Shown here one piece after another: positions 171 to 17,816 of a stretch of 19,368 nt of DNA. The stretch comes from a virus (lineage: Duplodnaviria > Heunggongvirae > Uroviricota > Caudoviricetes): IMG/VR virus record IMGVR_UViG_2737471862_000006, one strand, 5' to 3'. The position numbers and the translations under genes are program-made. Position 1 is the first letter of the stretch. Each line of letters begins with the position of its first letter. The notes under the pieces are model-generated. The model ran no database searches, was not told where the DNA came from, and worked only from the letters and a program-made list of their open reading frames with translations.

Positions 171-635
171 TTACTTTAAACACTGCTCGGTTATGTATTG
201 CTGAGCACCTTCAAGTTGGGCCTGCATCATTACCAGTCGTTCCCGGAGGGTGAAATAATCCCGTTCAGCGGTGTCTGCCAGTCGGGGGGAGGCTGCATTA
301 TCCACGCCGGAGGCGGTGGTGGCTTCACGCACTGACTGACAGACTGCTTTGATGTGCAACCGACGACGACCAGCGGCAACATCATCACGCAGAGCATCAT
401 TTTCAGCTTTCGCATCAGCTAACTCCTTCGTGTATTTTGCATCGAGCGCAGCAACATCACGCTGACGCATCTGCATGTCAGTAATTGCCGCGTTCGCCAG
501 CTTCAGTTCTCTGGCATTTTTGTCGCGCTGGGCTTTGTAGGTAATGGCGTTATCACGGTAATGATTAACAGCCCATGACAGGCAGACGATGATGCAGATA
601 ACCAGAGCGGAGATAATCGCGGTTACTCTGTTCAT
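171..635 (-). CDS. Rz-type i-spanin (inner-membrane spanin), 154 aa
   Basis: Near-identical by recollection to lambda Rz (N-terminal TM segment, coiled-coil body). ATG at 635..633 overlaps the endolysin TGA (ATGA). The track ORF extends to a GTG at 647; the ATG at 635 is preferred. Confidence 0.9.
230..415 (-). CDS. Rz1-type o-spanin lipoprotein, 61 aa, embedded in Rz in the +1 frame
   Basis: Signal peptide with lipobox VVGC, proline-rich PPPPP and PPP tracts; wholly nested inside the Rz gene in another frame, as in lambda Rz/Rz1. Confidence 0.85.
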
Positions 636-1129
636 TGCTGACCCCACAAACAGATTTCACGCTCAATCTCACGACGTGTCATGAGACCTTTCCATTGCTT
701 ACCGCCAGCATATGTCCAGCGACGTAGCTGATCACATGCGCCTTTGATATCGCCCTGGTTTATTTTGCGAAGAAGCGTCGATGTTCTGAAATTGCCAGCA
801 CCCACGTTGTAAACGAATGAGTAAAGAGCGCCGCGCGTTGTTTCCGGTATATCGACTTTGATGTACGGGTTAATTTGTCTGGCGACAGTGGCAAGGTCTT
901 TATTCAAGAGTGTTTTGCATTCTGCTTTGGTATACGTTTTACCGAGCATGATGTCTTTTCCTGTATGCCCGTGACATACAGTCCATACACCAACAATATC
1001 TTTGTATGGTATGTAGCTGACACCTTCCAGACCATCGTTACCACTTGGGCCAGTGATTAACACTGATGCTATAGCAATTGCTCCGCCACCAATAGCAGCA
1101 GCAACGACTTTTCGTAATGATGGAGGCAT
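632..1129 (-). CDS. SAR endolysin, T4-lysozyme family (phage 21 R-like), 165 aa
   Basis: N-terminal Gly/Ala-rich weakly hydrophobic signal-arrest-release segment ([18 protein letters not shown]) followed by an E...D...T catalytic triad region ([24 protein letters not shown]). Start ATG overlaps the holin stop. Confidence 0.9.
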
Positions 1130-1344
1130 TATTCACCTCTCGCAGCCTTGCGCTTATCTTCTTTAATCTTGAAATAAAGGTTTGTCAGGTACGTCAGCAG
1201 GCCAAATACCAGACTACCCAGCACACCGATTGCAGCCCACTGTGACGGAGTTACTCTATCGAGCAACTGTAAAAACCAGTAGCCAGCACTGCCTGCGGAG
1301 GTGCCGTAGGCAATGCCTGTTGAAATTTTGTCCATGGATTTCAT
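1129..1344 (-). CDS. Class II holin / pinholin (S21-like), dual-start MKSMDK
   Basis: Two TM segments, charged C-terminus ([13 protein letters not shown]); dual-start motif M-K-S-M typical of holin/antiholin pairs; SD GGAGGTG 5 nt upstream of the ATG at 1344. The track ORF extends to 1401, probably an artefactual upstream start. Confidence 0.85.
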
Positions 1345-1595
1345 AGCCTCACCTCCGCACGGAACGGATGGCATAGTTATTATGTGTAGGCTTTCAGACA
1401 CATCAATCAGAGCCTTAATTGATATATATGCTGGAGACGATGCAATATAAAAAGCTCGCCGTAGCGAGCTAATGAAATGTATTTCTCTGATATTATGTTT
1501 ATTTGTATTAGCTCAGACTTGACATCACAGGTTTCGTATATAGAACATCATCAAATCTGTCAGTTTGCTATGAATGAGATATAGTAATTGAAGAG

Positions 1596-1991
1596 CTAAC
1601 CTCGCATGTCAAAGCCAGATTTCTGAAAATCTCTGTAGACTTCCGGATTGTTGAAGGCCGGAAATTTGGCTTTATGAGCTGCGGACTTTATCGCTTCGCA
1701 ATAGGCTTTATCACCGTTACTGGTAGATATTTTTAACGCCGTGCCATCCTGAGAGAATTCCATATGCAACCTGCATTTTTTCCCTTTCCAGTTATGCGGC
1801 TCATCAAGTTTGGCATTAATTGCAGCTCTGATTCCCCGCGCTTGCGCCCCCCATTCATCCTGATCATCCCAGCGTCCTGAACTGCAACTACCTGTAGCAG
1901 TAGTTTTGTGGCAATCTGAAGGGTGTAAAGGTGTGCATCCCGCAACAAAACCGACCCAAAAAGTCAACATAACGATTTTCTTTAATCCCAC
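1596..1991 (-). CDS. Lipoprotein with TolA C-terminal-domain (domain III)-like tail, 131 aa
   Basis: GTG start with SD GGAG; signal peptide plus lipobox FVAGC; C-terminal GKKCRLHMEFSQDGTALKI...YCEAIKSAA...FPAFNNPEVYRDFQKSGFDM follows the TolA domain III pattern (GK.C.L....G.LL.I...LC.AA....P.PP...VY..F....DF). Confidence 0.7.
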   Translation of the reverse strand: MGLKKIVMLTFWVGFVAGCTPLHPSDCHKTTATGSCSSGRWDDQDEWGAQARGIRAAINAKLDEPHNWKGKKCRLHMEFSQDGTALKISTSNGDKAYCEAIKSAAHKAKFPAFNNPEVYRDFQKSGFDMRG

Positions 1992-2141
1992 TTCTTGCTC
2001 CTCAATCCATTAAAATCTCAGCAATAGTAGTTGTTACGTCCGCCACTGGCTCAGAGCTGACTATCCGCTAAATTTAGCTCAGTGCCGTAGCTGTGTCAGA
2101 ACAAACCTAAGCCGAAACCGTTTATTACAAAACAATAAATA

Positions 2142-2570
2142 TCAGGGTTTAAAATCCAGCACCCCATTTTGAAATACTTTATATACTTCCGGCGAAGGGG
2201 GGGCAGGTATATCAGCATTCTTTATCGCATTCATCGCTTCACGACATAAATCGAGGTCTCCACTTTCTCTTTTAACCTCCAGTAGAAGGCCATTCGGGGC
2301 CATATGCATTCTCAGTGTACACTCTTTTCCTGAATACTTACTCGCATCCCCGAACTGTTTTTCGATGGCGCTCTTGATTTGATGGGCATACAGACGGATA
2401 TCCTCACTAACATCAGAAGTACGTTCAGATGAACTCACATACTGTGTCTCTATTGCTTTATCGGAGTAATATGATGTACGGTCATGATAATTTGTCGATA
2501 CAGCATCAGTGCACCCGATAATAATCCCACTAATAATCAACGTAAGAATTGATGCGCTACGAAAACCCAT
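2142..2570 (-). CDS. Lipoprotein with TolA C-terminal-domain (domain III)-like tail, 142 aa; paralogue of 1596..1991
   Basis: ATG with SD GAGG; lipobox IIGC; C-terminal ~80 aa (HQIKSAIEKQFGDASKYSGKECTLRMHMAPNGLLLEVK...LCREAMNAIKNADIPAPPSPEVYKVFQNGVLDFKP) closely resembles the C-terminus of E. coli TolA as I recall it (...GQIKSAIESKFYDASSYAGKTCTLRIKLAPDGMLLDIK...PKPPSQAVYEVFKNAPLDFKP). Confidence 0.7.
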   Translation of the reverse strand: MGFRSASILTLIISGIIIGCTDAVSTNYHDRTSYYSDKAIETQYVSSSERTSDVSEDIRLYAHQIKSAIEKQFGDASKYSGKECTLRMHMAPNGLLLEVKRESGDLDLCREAMNAIKNADIPAPPSPEVYKVFQNGVLDFKP

Positions 2571-2733
2571 TTTTCCTCACATATGTCATATAGTAAAGGA
2601 TTATATATACCGTTGTTTTGGACGCTCAAACAGCGAATCAGATCAAATAAAACGCACATTTGTTAACATTTACACAAAGTCTGCGTGGGATATTCTGAAA
2701 GAATATCCATAATGTGGAGAGAATCTATTGAAG

Positions 2734-2838
2734 TGCATGGTGCCGGGTGCCTCCCGGTGAACAAAATGTTCGTGATACCTGTCGGCGACAGAAAAGGTTA
2801 ATGGTATCACCCCACCGCACAGGGGGATTCACCATGCA
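2734..2838. other. Compact ~105-nt cluster of nested inverted repeats (candidate structured RNA or DNA site)
   Basis: Outer 9-bp perfect stem TGCATGGTG (2734-2742) / CACCATGCA (2830-2838) enclosing hairpins CCGGG-tgcct-CCCGG (2743-2757), GAACA-aaa-TGTTC (2759-2771), GTGATACC...GGTATCAC (2772-2779 / 2803-2810) and CCCC...GGGG (2810-2813 / 2822-2825). Confidence 0.35.
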
Positions 2839-3158
2839 GGAGTTTTCTTAGCAAACTCACTGCGCGCCCGGCAACTCCCAACCACATAAAATGCGGAGTT
2901 TGTGGCATTTATGCATATAACTCGCAGGAATTATCTTAAAAAACTGATGTCGATCCGGATTAAAAAGAAGCAGGTCATCATCAGATGACTGGAAAAAAGG
3001 AAAACAAAAAATACTCATCATACAGTTTTGATTGCAGGGATGAGCCTGCTATGCACAATATGCAGAATATAAGCAAGATAAAAATATGCAGGCATATTAT
3101 TTCGGATTTTGTTATTAACACAACCTTTTTAATAATCATTTGGCATACAATAAACCAG

Positions 3159-3190
3159 CCCAAAAAGAACCGCCTAAACAGGCGGTTGGT
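3159..3190 (-). terminator. Candidate Rho-independent terminator (minus strand)
   Basis: Minus-strand reading AACCGCC-tgtttag-GGCGGTT followed by CTTTTTGG. Confidence 0.45.
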
Positions 3191-3431
3191 CAATACAAAG
3201 GATGCTTCGTCTTTATTATAGTAATCTGAGGCGTCGGGTGTCTTGTATCAGACAACATATTGTCCCGCTAAACAGCGAATTACAAACCACCCTGCAATGA
3301 TCTCTCATCTCATTTTATATGAGTTGACGACATCAGGATAACGCATCATCAGCCCCTGCCAAGAAATATCAAAACTCCCGCCAGCAATGTGTTATCACAA
3401 TATTGTAAAAAAAACACAGCACCGAAACTAT

Positions 3432-3469
3432 AACTGGTCTCTGTTATAATTTGGAGCAGAAAGACCAGT
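3432..3469 (+). promoter_or_regulatory. Extended -10 promoter element (TGtTATAAT at 3442-3450) inside a 9-bp inverted repeat AACTGGTCT / AGACCAGTT
   Basis: Perfect TATAAT with TG at -14/-15 on the plus strand; flanking perfect inverted repeat (3432-3440 / 3461-3469) suggests a protein-binding site or RNA hairpin; lies downstream of the Q-like gene where a late promoter / qut region is expected. Confidence 0.35.
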
Positions 3470-3504
3470 TGCCCAACTAGCAGCATTCTCCCCTGCTTTC
3501 CTGA

Positions 3505-3537
3505 CGTAAAAAAACCGCATTAAGCGGTTTTTTTACG
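3505..3537. terminator. Bidirectional intrinsic terminator-like perfect palindrome (14-bp arms, 5-nt loop)
   Basis: CGTAAAAAAACCGC-attaa-GCGGTTTTTTTACG; GC stem flanked by an A-tract and T-tract, functional in either orientation; ~80 nt downstream of the Q-like stop. Confidence 0.6.
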
Positions 3538-3614
3538 ATGTCCATGTCTGCAATCCGCCTCGCGATACAGCTTTGCGAAGCATAGCAAAATTGAAGCAGT
3601 TTATACGTAAGAAA

Positions 3615-4157
3615 TCAAGCCATTTTCTCAGCAAATGATTCACGCATGGGAATATATAGGGCATACTCAGCAACAGCTAACCAATTAGCAATCCGTTTTT
3701 CGCATGTGCTAAAACACCACTCTGGGTGTGCATCATTTAGCAATTCAGCCATTTTGCGCTTAGTCATCCCCCGCCCTTCATAGCGTTGCCGGAGAATGCA
3801 AATCAATCCTGGATGCTCTGCCAGCACCTCACTTATGACTCGATCAATACATAACGCCTCTGCATCAGTACAATGCGCCAGCCAGCTCTTTTGCTTGCCG
3901 TTGATCATCTCTCGCAAAAACGCTTCCAGCTCAGCTTTCTCTATTCCCGCTTTTTTCATTCTGCGCAGGGCTTCATTAATGGCTGTTTTCGTCAGTTTTT
4001 TGGATGCCAACAACTGATTGAACATATTCCCTGACCTGCCACCGCCAATATACGACCAGCGCCCCCACATACGTAGTTTTCCCTGAATCCAGACACTTTC
4101 CAGCGTGGTGAGGCGAAGGTGTTCTCCGCTTTTTCCTGTATTCGTTGGGTAAATCAT
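3615..4157 (-). CDS. Putative late-gene antiterminator (Q-like), 180 aa
   Basis: Call rests on position (last gene before a terminator/promoter-like leader and the lysis cassette, after ybcO-like nin genes) and basic, Cys-containing composition; ATGA overlap with the upstream gene. No sequence match recalled to lambda Q itself. Confidence 0.5.
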   Translation of the reverse strand: MIYPTNTGKSGEHLRLTTLESVWIQGKLRMWGRWSYIGGGRSGNMFNQLLASKKLTKTAINEALRRMKKAGIEKAELEAFLREMINGKQKSWLAHCTDAEALCIDRVISEVLAEHPGLICILRQRYEGRGMTKRKMAELLNDAHPEWCFSTCEKRIANWLAVAEYALYIPMRESFAEKMA

Positions 4158-4444
4158 AAATGACCTTTCTTTCTCCAGATTTCTTGTGTGCGAAAAACCC
4201 CTTCAGCATGCATCAGGCGCAATTCTTCTTTGGTGTAATCGCTGGTTTTTACCCGCCCGTCGATTAGATCGTGGCATGAGCTACAGGCTATCGCCGCCTG
4301 CATATCATGTGGTTTTGTCGCTGTTCCGCACGTCCCCGCCAGCCTGTAATGCGCCAGCACAGAGGTTTCGGGATTGTGATTGCAGTAGCCAGGGATTCTG
4401 ATCTGGCACATCTGGCCTTTAGCCGCTTTACGTAAATTCACCAT
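4154..4444 (-). CDS. YbcO-like (DUF1364) putative nuclease, 96 aa
   Basis: 96-aa Cys/His-rich protein (C..C...H...C..C.H) matching in size and pattern the DLP12 nin-region protein YbcO; start overlaps the upstream stop. Confidence 0.65.
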   Translation of the reverse strand: MVNLRKAAKGQMCQIRIPGYCNHNPETSVLAHYRLAGTCGTATKPHDMQAAIACSSCHDLIDGRVKTSDYTKEELRLMHAEGVFRTQEIWRKKGHL

Positions 4445-5043
4445 TACGCAAACTCCAGTAGTTGTGCGGCCACATTTTCAACTTCCTCCTGAGAGGAGAA
4501 TTTACGGAACAGAATCCAGTTCCACAGCACATTCAGTACAGATTTATAAACCTGCTGAAACTCGACTTCGTCCATATTCGCAAAAGCGATGGATTTTGCC
4601 CGACGCCCACGGCTACCGTCCGGATAAATATGCTCGGTGTAAAATCCGGCCTGAATGGTTACCCACTCGCGGAAAGCCTCAAACGACTTTAGCAACGCCG
4701 TATCCCGGGTTCTACGAGTCGCAACGGTGTTAAGGTATTGCTCTGCGGCATCACTCAGGGCTGGCGTGTGTTCCCGACCAACTGATTCGCACAGGTAATC
4801 AACGAAACCAGACAGCAGTTCTCGTTCGCGAGGCGTGATCGCCCCACCGACCGGAGTCCAGTAATCGAATCCCAGTTGCAGGAGTTTGAAAAAACGCTTG
4901 TGGAATGCGTAGTTACGCACACGCTTAAAGTCTGCGTGTATCCACTCACCTATTTTGATTTGATGCAGAAAATCGCAACTCTCCGGCGTCGCCGGGAGAA
5001 GTAAACCAGAAGAGGTTTGTTTGACCAGTTGTATATGCGCCAT
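4444..5043 (-). CDS. DUF1367-like lambdoid nin-region protein, 199 aa
   Basis: Resembles the conserved prophage protein family that commonly precedes DUF1364/YbcO in lambdoid nin regions; translationally coupled to the ybcO-like gene. Confidence 0.55.
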   Translation of the reverse strand: MAHIQLVKQTSSGLLLPATPESCDFLHQIKIGEWIHADFKRVRNYAFHKRFFKLLQLGFDYWTPVGGAITPRERELLSGFVDYLCESVGREHTPALSDAAEQYLNTVATRRTRDTALLKSFEAFREWVTIQAGFYTEHIYPDGSRGRRAKSIAFANMDEVEFQQVYKSVLNVLWNWILFRKFSSQEEVENVAAQLLEFA

Positions 5044-5323
5044 TTCTCAATCTCTCGATGGCGCAGCGCAGCAGATGCCAGTTGTTCAGGCTGACGAATA
5101 AAGTATAAATAAACTGGCTATGGTGTAAAGCCCCACATAGCATGAACAAACACTACATATCAAATAGCTGGTACAAGGATAGAAATACGACACTTATTAT
5201 TAAAAACGATTAGATAAATTACATTTTAATGTTATGCAAAAGTTCTTTTTTATCATAACATTTCAATAAAAGCATTACAGATGCAATCATCCCGTCATCA
5301 TCAATTATTTAAGGTGGTTAAAC

Positions 5324-5410
5324 ATGGAAAATAACAAGTTCGCACATCTCGCTCCTTTTTTATCCGTAATCCTTTTCGCTTGTTGTTTTATATGGGCATT
5401 ATTTTTATAA
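5324..5410 (+). CDS. Candidate small hydrophobic peptide, 28 aa (MENNKFAHLAPFLSVILFACCFIWALFL)
   Basis: Strong SD AAGGTGG 6 nt upstream of the ATG; single predicted TM helix; lies in the AT-rich island. Coding status unproven. Confidence 0.3.
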   Translation: MENNKFAHLAPFLSVILFACCFIWALFL

Positions 5411-5801
5411 AGTAGCCACATGATAAGTTGCTGGAATCATATTTCCCACTCAAGTCATTAACATTTGATAAGATATATCTAAAAGGACGCCTTTACATTA
5501 TTTATGCGTATATAATTTATTTATATACACAGTAAAGGTATCCTGGGAAAATATTTATCGTTAAAAAATACATCATAAATAATTAAGCTGAAATTTCAGA
5601 ACATAACTAATACACACAATAAGGTTCAGTAACAGTAATCTATGTGGACTACATCGAGATTTTTTGATTAAACTTTAATAACTTATTCCTAACACACAGA
5701 ATGCATAAACTAAAAGTAAAACAAATAGTTATACGAAAAACAACCATATTTATTCTATCTTCTCCTCTAATCAACATATCAATTATGTGTTTCATAACAG
5801 C

Positions 5802-5841
5802 TTGACATAACCCTCCAAAAGATGCATTTTTAATGCATGTT
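5802..5841 (+). promoter_or_regulatory. Candidate promoter (-35 TTGACA at 5802-5807) with NsrR-type operator (5819-5841)
   Basis: AAGATGCATTT-T-TAATGCATGTT matches the 11-1-11 NsrR inverted-repeat consensus (AAGATGCATTT-N-AAATGCATCTT) at 21 of 23 positions and overlaps the predicted -10 region, immediately upstream of the yeaR-like RBS. Confidence 0.55.
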
Positions 5842-5856
5842 TTGGAGGAGGTGGTT

Positions 5857-6195
5857 ATGACACACAAGAGAATTCCTAAAGATTGGGTAATCAAACGCTC
5901 AACTCCGTTCTTCACAAAAGAGAACGTACCTTCAGCGTTATTAACACATCATAATACAGCAGCAGGTGTTTTTGGGCAGTTGTGCGTAATGGAAGGCACT
6001 GTAACATATTATGGTTTTACTGATGAGAATGCTACTGAACCGGAGATAAAAGTAGTCATTAATGCTGGCGCTTTTGCAACAAGCCCACCACAATACTGGC
6101 ACCGTGTTGAACTAAGCGATGATGCTCAGTTTAATATTAACTTTTGGGTCGCTCCAGACTTTTCGGGCGAAAAAGTCTATAGCACCAAAAAATAG
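5857..6195 (+). CDS. YeaR-like DUF1971 protein, 112 aa
   Basis: ATG at 5857 preceded by SD GGAGGAGGTGG; resembles E. coli YeaR as recalled (RSTPFF, MEGTVTYYGF..E..AEPE, FNINFWVAP). The track ORF begins 24 nt upstream at a weaker start. Confidence 0.6.
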   Translation: MTHKRIPKDWVIKRSTPFFTKENVPSALLTHHNTAAGVFGQLCVMEGTVTYYGFTDENATEPEIKVVINAGAFATSPPQYWHRVELSDDAQFNINFWVAPDFSGEKVYSTKK

Positions 6196-6261: not shown

Positions 6262-6772
6262 GTAAATATATTGGTTCTACATTGACAGGAGACTTCAACC
6301 ATAAGAAGTAATCTGAATACTTGAGCAATAAATTTACTTAAGATTAATGAGCGCACCTTGCCGGACAAAGATAAACCAAGGTAACACCTTTTTTCTAGCC
6401 AGTATGTAATCAATCAGAAAGCCGCTCCATAAGAACAACAGCAAGACAATAAATTGCCATTACAGCCGCAATAGCCAGCGCACATTTGAGAACCAGCACG
6501 ACAACCCCCTGTATTAGACGCACACCAGTCCTGATAAATATGAGGCTGTCTCGTCAGTGATTCAATACAACTATTGGGTATAGTTTCTGTGATTTTATTC
6601 TGTAGAAATGGAACACAACAACCAGTCACCACCAGCACTTCCTTAAATGCTCTAAGTCAGAAACAAGCCAACATTTTAGTCCGCTTTGAGCGAAGAGCGG
6701 ACATTGCTAACAGCATCCTGTGTGAATCATTACGATCAAATCGATGACTAGATAAGTACAAACCGGAAAAGG

Positions 6773-6793
6773 GGCCTACTGACGAAGTAGGCC
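6773..6793 (-). terminator. Rho-independent terminator of the three-gene operon
   Basis: Minus-strand GGCCTAC-ttcgtca-GTAGGCC followed by CCTTTTCCGGTTT, 16 nt after the operon stop codon. Confidence 0.6.
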
Positions 6794-6810
6794 TGAGTTC
6801 CTTATATATT

Positions 6811-7467
6811 TCACAAAATTCTGAGAGTTTCTAAGATGGATAAAAGTGTTGGAAGCTGACTCTCTCTCACACGGAATCTACCCGTCCTAGATAATTCCGT
6901 TTCAATTCCGTTAACGAAGAAATGTACGGAATCAAAAACGGCCGAACTATTCATGTATTTATTCTGATAAATTTCTTGGAGATTCTTTGAGCTTACTATT
7001 TTTGTCTTTGCTAAAGTAAAAGGATCAACAGAGATATTAGATAGAGACATGGATTTTATCTTGATGTCAAAGCCCTCAGAAAGACCATTTACAATTTTTC
7101 TCAGATCAAATTCTACTGGTCTCAAGCCACTATCTTCACCAAATAGTTTTTGCACCATAGTATAAGGCACTTTCATACTTAATGGAGGATTAGTGGCATA
7201 TAGTATGATTTTTTTCCCTTGTCTGACGCCAAAGTCCACATTTAAGTAAGTTGCTATTTCAACCTCTGAACGCTCGCCATTAGCATATTCTAAGCTTTGC
7301 TTGCTAATGCTTCTCATGGTAAATCTTAGTTTAAGCACTTCAGAGTTATTAATGATTTGAAAACCATATCCTTTATCTTCATCATAGAGGTTGTCATTTA
7401 CTTTATGTAATAACTCACTTTTAGTTATATCCTTTTCTGCTTTATAAATTTTTACCTTTATCATCAT
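6811..7467 (-). CDS. Hypothetical protein, cassette gene C (218 aa from the ATG at 7467)
   Basis: ATG at 7467 overlaps the stop of gene B (ATGA) and is preceded by SD AGGAGG; AT-rich codon usage; no recognisable motifs. The track ORF start at 7494 is a TTG. Confidence 0.6.
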   Translation of the reverse strand: MMIKVKIYKAEKDITKSELLHKVNDNLYDEDKGYGFQIINNSEVLKLRFTMRSISKQSLEYANGERSEVEIATYLNVDFGVRQGKKIILYATNPPLSMKVPYTMVQKLFGEDSGLRPVEFDLRKIVNGLSEGFDIKIKSMSLSNISVDPFTLAKTKIVSSKNLQEIYQNKYMNSSAVFDSVHFFVNGIETELSRTGRFRVRESQLPTLLSILETLRIL

Positions 7468-8711
7468 CCAGCCTCCTGATTCAAAGTCTCGCAAGACATA
7501 GCTTTCGTTACTGGGTATCGCTTGGTATGCTCTTCGATAATAAAGTCATTAATCAAAAATATTTTATCTTCTAATTGTTTCATGACTTGATCAAAGTCTG
7601 CGTCACTGAGTTTTTCTCTCTCTGCGGATGCAGAGTTGCTTTCTTTGTATAACGCTCTGAATTTTATATTTTTCCCAAGATATTTATCATCGAAACTAAG
7701 TTCAAAAGTTATAGTATGATTCTTAACTACTGAGGAAAATGACTTCCATCGAATTAAGCTTCGATAAAACCCATCACTGCACAGTTCCTTAATTTGAGGT
7801 GCGTTCACTAATGATAGGCCATCATACGCGGCATTGTTAATGTTAAAAGTTAGGTTTTCATCATCGTCAGATGCCATTTCCTGATTATTAATGTCATCAT
7901 CATTTTCGTTATCTGTAGAAGGTGAAATCTTGTTTAATAACTCTTGTGTTTCTTCGTTATTATTTCCTTCGAGATTATCTCCATTAATATCCAGAGATGT
8001 TTTTATTCTGCTTACTCTAACCTTTTCAAGACCAGCATATTCAAGTCCTGTTTTTTTATAATTTCCATCAAAATCATAAAGATGAACAGCAAAAATATTC
8101 CTAAGATCTGTATCGACGATACTTGATAAATCTATTTCGTTGACAACTATGTTGTTACAAACTGTTGATGAATATGTATCAATTATTTGCTTGAGAATTT
8201 CTGAAATGCGTGGCGTATAGTTATATCTTACTGAAACATATCCTTTTTTTACTATAAAAACTATACTCCCACTGTACAATTTTTTCTGCTGAAACTTACC
8301 CCTTCTAAAATCAAACTCAGTATAATCAATAGATATATGATAGGTTTGCAAGCCTGAGTAATGATCAATTTTCTCATGCCCTAGCAACTTGGGTCTATTT
8401 TCTTTCACTTTGTTTACAACGTCATAGAGTTTCTCTATATCAAATTCTTCATATATACGTTTTACTGAGAAGACGTCTTGGCTGGGTTTGGTTGCCAGTT
8501 TATCTTGTACTTCTCTGATGTGATTATATGAAAATGGCAGGTCTGATAATTTTTCTATCAATACCTCTTTTGATAAGTTAGATGGGAAAATTATCCCTCT
8601 ATTGAAGGCGATTTTCCTTAATGTAACATCTGTGATTTTTGCACTGTTAGAGTGGAGGGCGGTATAAATGTCACTTTCGTTTGAAAACAACGTAGCTTGA
8701 TATTTATTCAT
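7464..8711 (-). CDS. Hypothetical protein, cassette gene B (415 aa) with acidic low-complexity central region
   Basis: ATG with SD AAGGAG, 10 nt after the stop of gene A; central Asp/Asn/Glu-rich stretch (NNNEETQ...DNENDDDINNQEMASDDDEN); no Walker or other motifs recognised. Confidence 0.6.
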   Translation of the reverse strand: MNKYQATLFSNESDIYTALHSNSAKITDVTLRKIAFNRGIIFPSNLSKEVLIEKLSDLPFSYNHIREVQDKLATKPSQDVFSVKRIYEEFDIEKLYDVVNKVKENRPKLLGHEKIDHYSGLQTYHISIDYTEFDFRRGKFQQKKLYSGSIVFIVKKGYVSVRYNYTPRISEILKQIIDTYSSTVCNNIVVNEIDLSSIVDTDLRNIFAVHLYDFDGNYKKTGLEYAGLEKVRVSRIKTSLDINGDNLEGNNNEETQELLNKISPSTDNENDDDINNQEMASDDDENLTFNINNAAYDGLSLVNAPQIKELCSDGFYRSLIRWKSFSSVVKNHTITFELSFDDKYLGKNIKFRALYKESNSASAEREKLSDADFDQVMKQLEDKIFLINDFIIEEHTKRYPVTKAMSCETLNQEAG

Positions 8712-8721
8712 GTCATACTCC

Positions 8722-9813
8722 TTATGAAAAGTGACATTTTCTATTCACCTGCTTGCTGGCAACCTGGTACTCAAATATAGATAGCTTTTGATTAACAAAA
8801 GGAATGGATACTATTTTTTCCTTTAACGTTTCTATATGAGATTGAGTGAAAGAATATATTCCTATGTAATCATTAATGGCGGATTGCAAATGAATGCTTG
8901 AGTGTGATGAGAACGGAGTTATAACAAATATTTTGTCAAATTGATTGAGTAATTGATAGTTAAATATATACTCTAAAAGAAATATAAAGTGGTTACTGGA
9001 ATCAACCTCTTCCTTCCAGAATATATTCAATATTTTATTTCTTATTCTATCGCCACCATCATTTCTAATATATTCGTGTTCATATGAGTAAAAAATCATC
9101 CCAGATGTTATCATTTCAATTGTGGCTGGAAGGATTTTCCCTTTCGTTGCTATTTTATTATGTTTGTCAGGGTAAAAATATGTACAGTTCTCTATCTCAG
9201 GAATTTTTTGCCATAACATATTTGTTTCTTGTGTTACTTTGTCAGTAATTCCTCTTCTAGTCTCGATGTGTTCTGTAACATCTAGTAAAAATCTGATCAT
9301 AGTTGGGTCAAAAACGGCAATCACAGAGTTCTCTGGAAAATCATAACTTGCTGTGGCTGCTCCATTTAATTTCTCAATTAAATCAGAGTCATATTTATTG
9401 TCATGATTATATATAAAAAGTAGGCCGTTAACTTGATATTTCTCATTTGTGCTGTCAACAAATAGACGCCGCCACTCAGGACTTCTTGGCGCGCAAGCTA
9501 CCTGTTGTGATAAACTTCGTACAGTGTTCAATATTGATTTTGTACCGTCAAGCGTGCTGGCACAATAAGATTTTAAATCTGTTTGTATATACTGAGTTAT
9601 ATCTGAATAAGGATCTTTATATTTGAAGACTACATCCGTAGGATGAGTTTTTTTTGGGTTTTCAGATAAAAGTTGTTTAGCGTTTAGATGAGATCTCAAA
9701 CAACAGTCCCAACTTATATCCGTTGTATTTTGGGTTTTCCAGCCTAACTCATCAAAAATTCTACTGGAAATGATACCTGCAATCTCATCAATATTCTTAG
9801 TTTCGCCGCCCAC
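8722..9813 (-). CDS. Hypothetical protein, cassette gene A (363 aa, GTG start)
   Basis: GTG start preceded by SD GGAGGA; possible but weak PD-(D/E)xK-like pattern near the N-terminus (HPTDVVF ... IQTDLKSY); no confident family assignment. Confidence 0.55.
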   Translation of the reverse strand: MGGETKNIDEIAGIISSRIFDELGWKTQNTTDISWDCCLRSHLNAKQLLSENPKKTHPTDVVFKYKDPYSDITQYIQTDLKSYCASTLDGTKSILNTVRSLSQQVACAPRSPEWRRLFVDSTNEKYQVNGLLFIYNHDNKYDSDLIEKLNGAATASYDFPENSVIAVFDPTMIRFLLDVTEHIETRRGITDKVTQETNMLWQKIPEIENCTYFYPDKHNKIATKGKILPATIEMITSGMIFYSYEHEYIRNDGGDRIRNKILNIFWKEEVDSSNHFIFLLEYIFNYQLLNQFDKIFVITPFSSHSSIHLQSAINDYIGIYSFTQSHIETLKEKIVSIPFVNQKLSIFEYQVASKQVNRKCHFS

Positions 9814-9885
9814 GCTTCCTCCATAGTTCGTTGTTTTATCTAGTGAAGATCTGATTCATGGTTTTCCAAGCCCATGCGCAAAACA

Positions 9886-9914
9886 ATTAATCAAGTAAGA
9901 ATAATCTTAATCAA
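9886..9914 (-). promoter_or_regulatory. Candidate sigma70 promoter for the three-gene operon
   Basis: Minus-strand TTGATT (9914-9909), 17-nt spacer, ATTAAT (9891-9886); about 70 nt upstream of the gene A start. Confidence 0.4.
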
Positions 9915-10110
9915 TTTAATCTTTTTTATTTGAATCATCAAGAGCCCCATTACTGATAGGCATCAGTTGGTGGTATCTCTGCTCAAGCTTCAGTAAAATC
10001 TGGTTTGCTACTTCCGCTCCTGGCACAAAGCGGACAACCACGCTAGCTCTCCCCTGTGCCAGAAAAATGTCAATTTACATATGAACTAATGCTCTTTGAT
10101 CTAGTAACGT

Positions 10111-10527
10111 CTATAAATACCGAAGATTTCCTTGATAAAATGCCAGTACACGTTTCATAACTTCACTCTTCCGGCACTCGCGACAGATTATGTTCTGACG
10201 CCTGTCATAGCGGCGTATTTCTCCGTCTGGTAATGACCAGATAAGGTCAGGATCAACCACAACCGTTTTTTTCACCTTTGCCCTGGATAGTTTTTTGCGG
10301 GCGTTTTTCCAATCCTTACGAGCCTGTTCAGACGGGAATAACCCATAGCCAGAGTTGTATACATCGCCACTGGCAACCAACTCTCTGGCAAGAATGCTCA
10401 TCAGATATCTTGTCGCACCTGTCTTGGCCTCCAGTTGCCTTAACGTCTCGCGCCCACTCTGGCGTACCAACTCAACAACCTGCTCCTTAATTTTTTCACG
10501 CTCTTCCTGTGTAAAAACTTTTGCCAT
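10111..10527 (-). CDS. Hypothetical prophage early-region protein, 138 aa
   Basis: ATG at 10527 with SD GGAGG (the track start at 10542 is a TTG); basic protein with a C-terminal CxxC pair; function unknown, possibly a remnant of the early or replication module. Confidence 0.45.
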   Translation of the reverse strand: MAKVFTQEEREKIKEQVVELVRQSGRETLRQLEAKTGATRYLMSILARELVASGDVYNSGYGLFPSEQARKDWKNARKKLSRAKVKKTVVVDPDLIWSLPDGEIRRYDRRQNIICRECRKSEVMKRVLAFYQGNLRYL

Positions 10528-10542
10528 AAGCGCCTCCGGCAA

Positions 10543-10872
10543 TCACTTTTCCGACACAATACGACTGGAGGAATCGACAATCTGTCGGACAATATCCCGG
10601 TGCTTGTTCAGCTCCCGCAGCGCGGCGCAGACTCGCTCCCACTTCTGGACATGATTTTTCGCCCGACGCAGTTCGCGGTTTGCCATATGCAGCGATGGTA
10701 AAACTAGGTCATCCGCTTGCGTTTCAGTAAACGATGGCAGCGACTGCACAATGTCCGCCACAGTTTCTGTTTTAATATCTTCCTGTGTTGCCGCTTCCTG
10801 TACCCATGCCTGCCCTTTTTCGGCTGCCAGGGCTAACAACACTGACTCGATGTGCTCATGCTTGATTTTCAT
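10543..10872 (-). CDS. YdaT-like (CII-analogue) prophage regulator, 109 aa
   Basis: Immediately downstream of, and ATGA-coupled to, the Cro-like gene, as in the Rac ydaS-ydaT pair; helical C-terminus. Assignment is by position and general resemblance. Confidence 0.45.
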   Translation of the reverse strand: MKIKHEHIESVLLALAAEKGQAWVQEAATQEDIKTETVADIVQSLPSFTETQADDLVLPSLHMANRELRRAKNHVQKWERVCAALRELNKHRDIVRQIVDSSSRIVSEK

Positions 10873-17440: not shown

Positions 17441-17635
17441 ATGAGATATGACAATGTTAAACCATGTCCATTTTGTGGTTGTCCATCAGTAACGGTGAAA
17501 GCCATTTCAGGATATTACCGAGCGAAGTGTAACGGATGCGAATCCCGAACCGGTTATGGTGGAAGTGAAAAAGAAGCACTCGAACGATGAAATAAACGAA
17601 CCACTGGAAATAATAATGGAGGTGTTCATGTATAA
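17441..17635 (+). pseudogene. ralR: ralR toxin (restriction-alleviation / DNase) interrupted by an in-frame TGA at codon 50
   Basis: MRYDNVKPCPFCGCPSVTVKAISGYYRAKCNGCESRTGYGGSEKEALER then TGA (17588-17590), then in-frame NKRTTGNNNGGVHV and TAA (17633-17635); total 64 codons as in K-12 RalR, where this codon is TGG (Trp) by my recollection. Confidence 0.65.
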
Positions 17636-17816
17636 AATTACCGCCACTATTGAAAAGGAAGGTGGCACTCCTACTAACTGGACAAGATATTCAAAATCTA
17701 AACTAACGAAATCAGAATGCGAAAAAATGCTCTCAGGTAAAAAAGAAGCAGGCGTTTCCAGAGAGCAGAAAGTAAAACTGATAAATTTTAATTGCGAGAA
17801 ACTTCAGTCCTCGTGA
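17628..17816 (+). CDS. rcbA: RcbA/YdaC-like protein, 62 aa
   Basis: MYKITATIEKEGGTPTNWTRYSKSKLTKSECEKMLSGKK...; ATG overlaps the end of the ralR frame; SD GGAGGTG. Confidence 0.65.
   Translation: MYKITATIEKEGGTPTNWTRYSKSKLTKSECEKMLSGKKEAGVSREQKVKLINFNCEKLQSS

What the first reader, a model, noticed from the sequence alone, without database searches (positions are those of the whole stretch)
6773..9914. AT-rich three-gene operon of unknown function inserted in the prophage early region: candidate novel accessory or defence module
Three minus-strand genes (A 363 aa, B 415 aa, C 218 aa) are tightly packed: A stop to B start is 10 nt with SD AAGGAG, and B/C overlap as ATGA with SD AGGAGG, indicating translational coupling. 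The unit has its own candidate promoter (TTGATT-17-ATTAAT at 9914-9886) and an intrinsic terminator (6773-6793). Hand counts on sample lines give about 28-32% GC, against 55-57% in recE, so the cassette looks horizontally acquired. It sits where lambdoid phages normally carry replication genes, a slot in which prophages often carry defence cargo. I could find no Walker A/B, HNH, HEPN, TIR/SIR2 or other diagnostic motif; gene A has only a weak PD-(D/E)xK-like pattern and gene B an unusual acidic low-complexity core. A co-transcribed triad with no assignable domains is the profile expected of an undescribed system.
Basis: partly seen in the sequence, partly recalled or inferred. Interest (0 to 1): 0.85.

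Follow-up and report, generated by a model that had tools for sequence, protein, structure and literature searches.

The report
Divergent 3HP anti-phage operon in Rac
The three AT-rich genes are a divergent copy of a known but poorly understood anti-phage system (Rst_3HP), carried in a cargo slot of the E. coli Rac prophage; it most likely pairs a DNA-cutting enzyme with two DNA-ring proteins that sense broken or linear DNA.

Summary
Three tightly coupled minus-strand genes (363, 415 and 218 aa; 33.7% GC against 44% in the flanks) fill a 3.3-kb variable slot of a Rac-type prophage. The reading "undescribed system" does not hold. All three proteins hit the consecutive PADLOC profiles Hp1, Hp2 and Hp3 of Rst_3HP, a P2-hotspot system shown in 2022 to protect against phage P1. 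The triad is intact in 77 of 77 evaluable loci across many phyla.

New here:
- Hp1 is a homologue over about two-thirds of its length of GAPS4a, a PD-(D/E)xK DNase. Its H-P-x-D…D-L-K-S motif is invariant in 81 sequences.
- Hp2 is a remote homologue of GAPS4b, the ring-forming partner (hhalign 92.5%).

I infer a three-component relative of GAPS4. An RdgC-like Hp2/Hp3 ring senses DNA ends or breaks and unleashes a non-specific nuclease, giving abortive infection.

In other E. coli prophages the same slot carries AIPR, AbiH, SMEK and NACHT genes, so it is a defence hotspot.

Verdict: new, divergent member of a known kind, of moderate interest, mainly for the GAPS4/RdgC link.

The parts
6695..10012 (.). 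Variable cargo slot of the Rac-type prophage. It lies between the conserved hokD-side segment (6395-6694) and the DUF977 gene region (10013 onward). The whole 3HP cassette sits inside it.
   Evidence: blastn against three other prophage loci that carry different cargo places the breakpoints at about 6694 and about 10013. Alternative cargo at this slot is shown. The slot is 34.0% GC against 44.2% for the rest of the window.
9886..9914 (-). Candidate sigma-70 promoter, TTGATT-17-ATTAAT. It is unverified. Read-through from the upstream cro/ydaT/DUF977 operon is equally possible.
   Evidence: The sequence is present. It matches 8 of 12 consensus positions, was not called by the scan, and promoter-like sites are not enriched over shuffles.
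8722..9813 (-). Gene A = Hp1. It is a GAPS4a-like PD-(D/E)xK nuclease of 363 aa and the predicted effector DNase.
   Evidence: - PADLOC Hp1, E 5e-41.
- phrog_7059.
- Precomputed Pfam PF26115 on all 71 homologues.
- RefSeq product name 'PD-(D/E)XK nuclease domain-containing protein'.
- hhalign against a GAPS4a alignment: probability 98.3%, E 2.3e-14, over residues 1-247 of 363.
9571..9645 (-). Codons for the catalytic signature of Hp1: H57-P58-x-D60 ... D79-L80-K81 (followed by S82).
   Evidence: These residues are invariant in 81 of 81 Hp1 sequences from many phyla. D60 aligns with the GAPS4a aspartate whose D-to-A mutation abolishes defence.
7464..8711 (-). Gene B = Hp2, 415 aa. It has an N-terminal four-helix domain, then two TBP-like/RdgC-like domains split by an acidic disordered linker. 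It is a remote homologue of GAPS4b.
   Evidence: - PADLOC Hp2, E 9.6e-11, N-terminal half only.
- AF2 model with pLDDT 76.
- hhalign of a diverse Hp2 profile against GAPS4b: probability 92.5%, E 4.8e-7. Shuffled controls score at most 19, against 38 for the real RiKo sequence in the matching single-sequence run.
7839..7991 (-). Acidic low-complexity linker of Hp2, residues 241-291. It has 16 D/E and 1 K/R, with pI 4.05.
   Evidence: pLDDT is below 50 over residues 243-289. Acidic richness of 40-47% in a 40-aa window is seen in all the close Enterobacterales/Vibrionales-clade Hp2 and in several distant ones, and falls to 23-28% in the least acidic family members.
6811..7467 (-). Gene C = Hp3, 218 aa, basic (pI 9.2). 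It has an RdgC/IML3-like two-domain fold. It is the component that sets 3HP apart from two-gene GAPS4.
   Evidence: - PADLOC Hp3, E 3.8e-11.
- AF2 model with pLDDT 92.5 and pTM 0.85.
- Best Foldseek match is RdgC, E 2.8e-7, TM 0.53, followed by Iml3.
- Present in 77 of 77 evaluable loci.
6773..6793 (-). Hairpin downstream of gene C, a probable intrinsic terminator with a weak U tract.
   Evidence: RNA fold gives dG -17.1 kcal/mol and z -2.84. The terminator scan did not call it because the tail has only 4 U.

Best explanation
The cassette is a divergent member of the Rst_3HP anti-phage family. It is carried as swappable cargo in a defence hotspot of a Rac-type lambdoid prophage of E. coli.

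**Proposed mechanism**
- Hp1 (gene A) is a GAPS4a-type PD-(D/E)xK DNase and acts as the effector.
- Hp2 (gene B) is the counterpart of GAPS4b. Its N-terminal helical domain holds the nuclease. Its two RdgC-like domains form part of a DNA-encircling ring or horseshoe.
- Hp3 (gene C) is a second, smaller RdgC/IML3-like protein. It completes or caps that ring as a hetero-partner, much as IML3 pairs with CHL4.
- The ring binds DNA non-specifically and reports free double-strand ends or breaks. These could be injected or replicating linear phage DNA, or phage-induced damage.
- That signal releases the nuclease, which degrades phage and host DNA alike. The outcome is abortive infection that protects the lysogen population.

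**Shown here:** family membership by profile hits, Hp1-GAPS4a homology, Hp2-GAPS4b homology, the RdgC-like folds of the Hp2 and Hp3 models, strict conservation of the triad, purifying selection, and the hotspot context.

**Taken from the literature on homologues:** anti-phage activity (the P2-type 3HP protects against P1), and DNA-break-triggered non-selective DNase activity with an a2b2 ring complex (GAPS4).

**Inferred, not shown:** that this copy is active, that Hp2 and Hp3 heterodimerise, that the trigger is DNA ends, and that the acidic Hp2 linker autoinhibits the DNA-binding pore.

**Confidence by part:** about 0.9 that it is a 3HP-family defence cassette, and about 0.5 that it works by the specific ring-sensor/DNase mechanism.
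For: **Family membership**
- A, B and C hit PADLOC PDLC03004, 03005 and 03006 (Hp1, Hp2, Hp3) in gene order.
- The same profiles score 1e-158 to 1e-248 on the triad in the P2-like Klebsiella phage hotspot.
- The P2-hotspot three-gene system with no predicted domains protects against P1 (PMC9122126).
- A Vibrio phage homologue is annotated Rst_3HP__Hp1-3.
- The PHROG families are the same ones, 7059, 6531 and 5850.

**Nuclease**
- PF26115 is recorded on all 71 homologues.
- hhalign of Hp1 against GAPS4a gives 98.3%, E 2.3e-14.
- GAPS4a itself hits the PADLOC Hp1 profile at E 2.9e-5.
- H57, P58, D60, D79, L80, K81 and S82 are invariant in 81 of 81 sequences.
- The GAPS4a D-to-A mutant loses defence.

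**Sensor**
- Hp2 against GAPS4b gives hhalign 92.5%, E 4.8e-7. Against MAVP-R alone it gives 81% over 306 columns. Shuffle controls support the match.
- The GAPS4b dimer is predicted to form a ring with GAPS4a docked on its helical domains. The a2b2 stoichiometry is supported by SEC-MALS. GAPS4 is triggered by DNA breaks and degrades host and phage DNA.
- RdgC is the best structural match for both the Hp2 and the Hp3 model.
- RdgC, RexA and IML3-CHL4 are ring or horseshoe homo- or heterodimers that bind DNA non-specifically (PMC11077077).
- Hp3, the Hp2 N-terminal domain and Hp2 domain 1 are basic.

**Conservation and context**
- The triad is present in 77 of 77 evaluable loci, with ATGA coupling of B and C in 34 of 76.
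- dN/dS is 0.06-0.15.
- The slot carries AIPR, AbiH, SMEK, NACHT, FRG or an AAA ATPase in other prophages.
- Neighbours elsewhere are integrases, type I R-M genes, AAA_15/21, NERD and ABC-3C genes.
Against: - No experiment exists on this copy or its clade. It shares only 22-33% identity with the validated P2-type system.
- The PADLOC Hp2 hit covers only the N-terminal half.
- Hp3 has no counterpart in GAPS4 and no sequence similarity to Hp2, GAPS4b or RdgC. Its role is inferred from fold alone.
- Only monomer models were possible, so the Hp2-Hp3 ring is untested.
- The validated 3HP protected only against P1 out of eight phages. That is narrower than expected for a generic DNA-end sensor.
- The GAPS4b sequences were transcribed by hand from the residue lists of supplementary CIF files. 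Small typing errors are possible.
- The GAPS4 data come from a preprint.
Confidence: 0.6

Rival explanations
1. It is a 3HP defence system, but its trigger is not DNA ends or breaks. The RdgC-like proteins would instead recognise a specific phage protein or a replication/recombination intermediate (as proposed for RexA), or would interfere with RecA. The nuclease would then act selectively on phage DNA rather than killing the cell.
For: - The validated P2-type 3HP protected against only one of eight phages, P1.
- RdgC itself modulates RecA, and RexA-mediated exclusion does not strictly need DNA binding.
- Hp3 has no equivalent in GAPS4, so the sensing logic may differ.
Against: - Hp1 and Hp2 are homologous to the GAPS4 pair, for which no escape phages could be isolated and DNA breaks are the trigger.
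- No extra sensor domain is present in any of the three proteins.
Confidence: 0.2
2. It is a phage recombination or replication accessory module, not an immune system. A nuclease plus RdgC-like DNA-binding proteins would serve the prophage's own DNA metabolism, for example by modulating RecA or processing replication intermediates. Its position beside the replication genes would fit that role.
For: - It lies directly downstream of the ydaT/DUF1627/DUF977 early genes on the same strand.
- RdgC is a recombination-associated protein.
- The depositors of a Pseudomonas phage record named the Hp3 homologue 'RdgC-like exonuclease'.
Against: - The same cassette, at 97% identity, sits in a non-phage, ICE-like context next to an integrase, IS3 and TrbL.
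- It also occurs in chromosomal islands of many phyla beside R-M and Abi-type genes.
- It occurs in P2-like, Pf-like and other phages at accessory positions.
- In Rac-like prophages the slot is interchangeable with AbiH, AIPR and NACHT genes.
- A homologous triad gave phage resistance when cloned alone.
- The host Rac element has lost its replication genes.
Confidence: 0.07
3. It is an inactive relic: cargo of a defective prophage that is no longer expressed or functional.
For: - Rac here is degenerate, with a DUF1627 pseudogene, a tolA fragment and no ydaU/ydaV.
- No convincing promoter of its own was found.
- The cassette is rare, in 11 of 5426 complete E. coli genomes.
- One copy is interrupted or flanked by ISApl1.
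Against: - All three ORFs are intact in 10 of 11 genomes at 97% identity or more.
- dN/dS is 0.06-0.15.
- The catalytic residues are intact.
- The Shine-Dalgarno sequences and translational coupling are preserved.
Confidence: 0.08

Closest known systems
Rst_3HP (Hp1-Hp2-Hp3), the P2-like prophage hotspot system of Rousset et al. 2022 (PMC9122126); DefenseFinder 'Rst_3HP', PADLOC PDLC03004-03006
   Same: - Same three genes in the same order, with translational coupling.
- All three proteins hit the family profiles.
- Same PHROG families.
- Carried by prophages at an accessory hotspot.
   Different: - Only 22-33% identity to the P2-type proteins.
- Profile scores of 139, 39 and 41 bits, against 520-820 bits for the canonical triad.
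- The Hp2 hit covers only the N-terminal half, and this Hp2 has a long acidic insert.
- The carrier is a lambdoid (Rac) prophage, and in one strain an ICE-like element, not P2.
- Activity is untested.
GAPS4 (GAPS4a + GAPS4b), a GMT-island system described as a DNA-break-triggered non-selective DNase (bioRxiv 10.1101/2025.09.07.674715)
   Same: - Hp1 is homologous to GAPS4a over about 240 residues and shares PF26115.
- Hp2 is a remote homologue of GAPS4b, including the N-terminal helical domain on which GAPS4a is predicted to dock.
- The gene order is nuclease first, then partner.
- The predicted ring-forming partner fits the RdgC-like fold found here.
   Different: - GAPS4 has two genes, or one fused gene. 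3HP always has a third gene, Hp3, in 77 of 77 loci.
- The active-site motif is HPxD...DLK, a canonical acidic residue, instead of HGxD...SxK.
- GAPS4b does not hit the PADLOC Hp2 profile.
- The held literature does not connect the two systems.
RdgC (E. coli recombination-associated protein, PDB 2OWL) and the RdgC/RexA/IML3-CHL4 fold group
   Same: - Best structural match for both the Hp2 and the Hp3 model.
- Two-domain architecture.
- Members form ring or horseshoe dimers, homo- or hetero-, that bind DNA non-specifically through a basic pore.
   Different: - No sequence similarity: no Pfam RdgC hit in the window proteins or in 10 diverse Hp3, and no PDB sequence hit.
- Hp2 adds an N-terminal helical domain and an acidic linker.
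- The proteins are coupled to a nuclease rather than standing alone.
- There is no RexB-like membrane partner.
Shedu and Hachiman (defence systems with nuclease effectors activated by DNA ends or aberrant DNA states)
   Same: The proposed logic is the same: sensing of free DNA ends or damage licenses a PD-(D/E)xK-type nuclease. The GAPS4 authors name them as analogues.
   Different: The sensor architecture is unrelated. There are no PADLOC or Pfam hits to these systems. This is a resemblance of logic only.

Membership tests
Rst_3HP | Three co-directional adjacent genes in the order Hp1-Hp2-Hp3 | tested here: met
   The order is A, B, C on the minus strand, with a 10-nt gap between A and B and an ATGA overlap between B and C. 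The same order is found in 77 of 77 evaluable homologous loci.
Rst_3HP | Each protein matches the family's profile HMM (PADLOC PDLC03004, 03005, 03006) | tested here: met
   E-values are 5e-41, 9.6e-11 and 3.8e-11. The Hp2 match covers profile positions 6-209 of 359 only. Whether PADLOC's or DefenseFinder's own score and coverage cut-offs are passed could not be tested.
Rst_3HP | Confers resistance to phage (P1 for the type system) | not testable with these tools
   The only evidence is from the literature on the P2-type homologue.
Rst_3HP | Carried in a variable accessory or defence hotspot of a mobile element | tested here: met
   The slot between the DUF977 gene and the hokD side holds other defence genes in related prophages. 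A second copy lies in an ICE-like element.
GAPS4 | GAPS4a-type PD-(D/E)xK nuclease (Pfam PF26115) | tested here: met
   PF26115 appears in the precomputed annotation, although it is not in the local Pfam copy, which gave no hit. hhalign against GAPS4a gives 98.3%, E 2.3e-14.
GAPS4 | Active-site motif HGxD...SxK | tested here: not met
   The motif here is H57-P58-T-D60 ... D79-L80-K81, invariant in 81 Hp1 sequences. It is a variant with the canonical acidic residue in place of Ser.
GAPS4 | GAPS4b partner encoded immediately downstream | tested here: met
   Hp2 against the two-sequence GAPS4b alignment gives hhalign 92.5%, E 4.8e-7. Against MAVP-R alone it gives 81% over 306 columns. Shuffle controls support the match. 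The homology is remote, and a narrow Hp2 profile missed it.
GAPS4 | Two-component system (two genes or one fused gene) | tested here: not met
   A third gene, Hp3, is conserved in 77 of 77 loci and under purifying selection. It has no similarity to GAPS4b.
GAPS4 | a2b2 heterotetramer with a GAPS4b ring; DNase triggered by DNA breaks | not testable with these tools
   No multimer prediction or biochemistry was available here.
RdgC family (Pfam RdgC; PDB 2OWL) | Sequence match to the RdgC family | tested here: not met
   There were no Pfam hits for B or C or for 10 diverse Hp3. Profiles of A and B found nothing in PDB sequences at E up to 10.
RdgC family (Pfam RdgC; PDB 2OWL) | RdgC two-domain fold | tested here: met
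RdgC family (Pfam RdgC; PDB 2OWL) | Ring-shaped dimer that binds DNA in a basic central pore | not testable with these tools
   Only monomer models could be made. The basic character of Hp3 (pI 9.2) and of the Hp2 N-terminal domain and domain 1 (pI about 9) is consistent with DNA binding.
Lambda RexAB exclusion system | RexA-like protein paired with the RexB membrane protein | tested here: not met

The most novel reading that the evidence does not exclude
Rst_3HP and GAPS4 would be two branches of one superfamily of defence systems. In this superfamily an RdgC-fold toroid acts as a sequence-independent sensor of DNA ends or breaks and gates a docked PD-(D/E)xK DNase. The toroid would be a homodimer of GAPS4b in GAPS4, and an Hp2-Hp3 heterodimer in 3HP, the bacterial analogue of IML3-CHL4. 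Together with lambda RexA, this would make the RdgC fold a recurrent 'DNA-state sensor' of phage exclusion. It would also give 3HP, until now three 'hypothetical proteins', a testable mechanism.
Probability: 0.4. Interest if true: 0.65.

Novelty: new member of a known kind. Interest (0 to 1): 0.4.

Why it matters
Rst_3HP is counted in defence censuses but had no assigned domains or mechanism. A 2024 survey still listed it as unclassifiable.

Three results turn it into a system with a concrete, falsifiable mechanism:
- its nuclease and its second protein are tied to GAPS4, a system described as a DNA-break sensor;
- both non-nuclease components have the RdgC ring fold;
- the third gene is strictly conserved.

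The work predicts which residues to mutate (D60, D79, K81) and which partner to delete (Hp3). It also predicts side effects, namely sensitisation to quinolones and to DNase toxins.

Finally, it documents a defence hotspot between the DUF977 gene and the hokD side of E. coli Rac/Qin-like prophages.

Tried and rejected
**Searches that gave nothing useful**
- Pfam-A and NCBIfam scans of A, B and C found nothing significant. The local Pfam copy lacks PF26115.
- PDB sequence searches with profiles of A and B found no hit at E up to 10.
- A narrow Hp2 profile (Neff 2.6) against GAPS4b RiKo gave no signal. The link appeared only with a diverse profile built from the genome loci.
- Hp2 against Hp3, and Hp3 against GAPS4b, showed no sequence similarity with narrow or diverse profiles. 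Hp3 is therefore not a detectable duplicate of Hp2 or a split-off piece of GAPS4b.
- No Pfam RdgC signal appeared in 10 diverse Hp3.
- tblastn of GAPS4b against plasmids found only two near-identical copies, useless for a profile.
- The accession look-up in the GAPS4 supplement found nothing.
- Rfam found no known RNA inside the cassette.
- Literature searches linking 3HP with GAPS4 or RdgC found nothing.

**Hypotheses rejected**
- Toxin-antitoxin reading: the gene sizes, the conserved triad and the homology to GAPS4 argue against it.
- Pseudogene or relic reading: the ORFs are intact and dN/dS is low.

Full report
**1. Observation**

The window carries three minus-strand ORFs at the stated place: A 8722-9813 (363 aa), B 7464-8711 (415 aa) and C 6811-7467 (218 aa). 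The sequence shows TAAGGAG across the A stop, with 10 nt to the B ATG. B and C overlap as ATGA, preceded by AGGAGG, and GGAGGA lies before the GTG of A.

The cassette is 33.7% GC. recE is 49.8% and the rest of the window 44.2%.

The hairpin at 6773-6793 is stable (dG -17.1 kcal/mol, z -2.8), but its U tract is weak and the scan did not call it. The proposed promoter exists as sequence. It matches only 8 of 12 consensus positions, and promoter-like sites are not enriched in this AT-rich stretch.

**2. Setting**

The window is a Rac-type prophage of E. coli. Its gene order is ttcA-intR-xisR-ralR-recT-recE-racC-kilR-sieB, then a cI-like/cro-like pair, a DUF1627 pseudogene, DUF977, the cassette, DUF1367/DUF1364/DUF1133, the lysis genes and trkG.

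The cassette is present in 11 of 5426 complete E. coli genomes, always on the chromosome.

Comparison with other lambdoid prophages places the homology breakpoints at about 6694 and about 10013. Between the same flanks, other strains carry:
- an AIPR protein;
- AbiH plus a hypothetical protein;
- a SMEK protein plus a methyltransferase;
- a NACHT protein, an FRG protein or an AAA ATPase.

The slot is therefore a cargo hotspot rich in defence genes. The cassette lies just after the degenerate replication module rather than replacing it.

A 97%-identical copy in strain TD225-C4 lies beside an integrase, IS3 and trbL. The unit therefore moves between kinds of mobile element. Against that copy, dN/dS is 0.15, 0.06 and 0.12 for A, B and C.

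**3. Identity**

A, B and C hit three consecutive PADLOC models named Hp1, Hp2 and Hp3, at 5e-41, 9.6e-11 and 3.8e-11. These models score 1e-158 to 1e-248 on a triad in the hotspot of a P2-like Klebsiella phage.

This corresponds to the system of Rousset et al. [quoted passage not shown] A Vibrio phage homologue is annotated Rst_3HP__Hp1/2/3 by its depositors. PHROGs 7059, 6531 and 5850 are the same three families.

Identity to the P2-type proteins is only 22-33%, so this is a divergent clade. Close relatives (45-87% identity) occur in Serratia, Yersinia, Morganella, Pantoea, Vibrio and Aeromonas.

A scan of one genome per species returned 80 loci from Proteobacteria, Verrucomicrobia, Acidobacteria, Myxococcota, Desulfobacterota and others. 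Hp2 follows Hp1 in all of them. Hp3 follows in 77, and the other three contigs end before it.

The Hp3 family has 275 clusters among 1.84 billion representatives.

**4. What the proteins are**

*Hp1.* All 71 homologues carry precomputed Pfam PF26115, 'GAPS4 PD-(D/E)XK nuclease domain', and one RefSeq record names it so. I built a GAPS4a alignment from the supplement of the GAPS4 preprint. Profile-profile comparison with it gives 98.3% probability and E 2.3e-14 over residues 1-247. H57-P58-x-D60 and D79-L80-K81-S82 are invariant in 81 sequences. D60 aligns with the aspartate whose mutation abolishes GAPS4 defence.

- A diverse Hp2 profile matches GAPS4b collinearly. Against the single RiKo sequence it gives 51% probability, E 1.5e-4 and score 38.
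- Against the two GAPS4b sequences it gives 92.5% and E 4.8e-7. Against MAVP-R alone it gives 81% over 306 columns.
- Thirty shuffles of the RiKo sequence score at most 19.

**5. Mechanism**

According to a 2025 preprint, GAPS4 is a two-gene system with these properties:
- it forms an a2b2 complex;
- the GAPS4b dimer is predicted to form a ring, and GAPS4a docks on its helical domains;
- it is triggered by DNA breaks, including those from nalidixic acid and T6SS DNase;
- it degrades host and phage DNA.

RdgC, RexA and IML3-CHL4 are ring or horseshoe dimers, homo- or hetero-, that bind DNA non-specifically.

Putting these together, the most likely mechanism for 3HP has three steps. An RdgC-like Hp2/Hp3 ring detects DNA ends or breaks. 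It then activates the Hp1 DNase docked on the Hp2 N-terminal domain. The result is abortive infection.

Three points are inference only: the Hp2-Hp3 heterodimer, the nature of the trigger, and an autoinhibitory role for the acidic linker.

**6. Novelty**

What I could not find in the held literature is any link between 3HP and GAPS4, or between 3HP and RdgC. One phage record does label its Hp3 'RdgC-like exonuclease'.

I rate the locus a new, divergent member of a known kind, and the mechanistic link as the part worth following.

**7. Limits**

- Only monomer models were made, with no multimer prediction.
- The GAPS4b sequences were typed from CIF residue lists.
- The neighbourhood survey had no background control.
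- The GAPS4 mechanism rests on a preprint.

Noticed in passing
window 6395-6694 and 10013-10537 (flanks); loci L083, L084, L085: The interval between the DUF977 gene and the hokD-side segment is a cargo hotspot in E. coli Rac/Qin-like prophages. Different strains carry AIPR, AbiH plus a hypothetical protein, SMEK plus a methyltransferase, NACHT, FRG or an AAA ATPase there.
   Followed up: partly
L088 (E. coli TD225-C4, NZ_CP035860.1) 3121-6114: The same cassette, at 97% nucleotide identity, lies beside a site-specific integrase, IS3 and trbL. That is an ICE-like context, not Rac. All three genes are intact, with dN/dS of 0.06-0.15.
   Followed up: partly
window 17634-17812 (-): RalA antitoxin sRNA (Rfam RF02694, 225 bits), next to the ralR type I toxin of Rac.
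   Followed up: no
window 2681-2867 (-): Match to the sRNA family STnc100 (Rfam RF02076, 86.6 bits), near the tolA-like fragment in the late region of the prophage.
   Followed up: no
window 5001-6000, ORF 5833-6195 (+): A second AT-rich stretch (GC 0.33) holds a small plus-strand ORF annotated TehB family/DUF1971. It looks like separate foreign cargo next to the 3HP slot.
   Followed up: no
window 10543-10872 region; L001 13844-14104: The replication module of this Rac copy is degenerate. DUF1627 is an N-terminally truncated pseudogene, and no ydaU/ydaV or replisome-organiser gene is present, so the prophage is probably replication-defective.
   Followed up: no
hit H4, E. coli 30COLEC (NZ_CP070930.1) 2525904-2530276: In one of the 11 carrier genomes the cassette match is split in two pieces by an IS30-like ISApl1 transposase. 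The insertion point was not determined.
   Followed up: no
L086 (Pseudomonas phage 54-4, Tubulavirales) 485-3252; L087 (Vibrio phage 1F53_PE003) 3995-6790: The 3HP triad also occurs at the end of a 13-kb filamentous Pf-like phage, where the depositors call the third gene 'RdgC-like exonuclease'. It also sits next to the integrase of a Vibrio temperate phage, where it is labelled Rst_3HP.
   Followed up: partly
window 7839-7991 (-), Hp2 residues 241-291: The acidic disordered insert has 16 D/E and 1 K/R. Acidic richness in this region is highest in, but not confined to, the Enterobacterales/Vibrionales clade of Hp2. It might mimic DNA and autoinhibit the basic pore, but this is untested.
   Followed up: partly
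window 1596-2570 (-): TolA C-terminal-domain genes, one intact and one truncated, sit between the Q-like region and the lysis genes of the prophage (annotation of L001).
   Followed up: no
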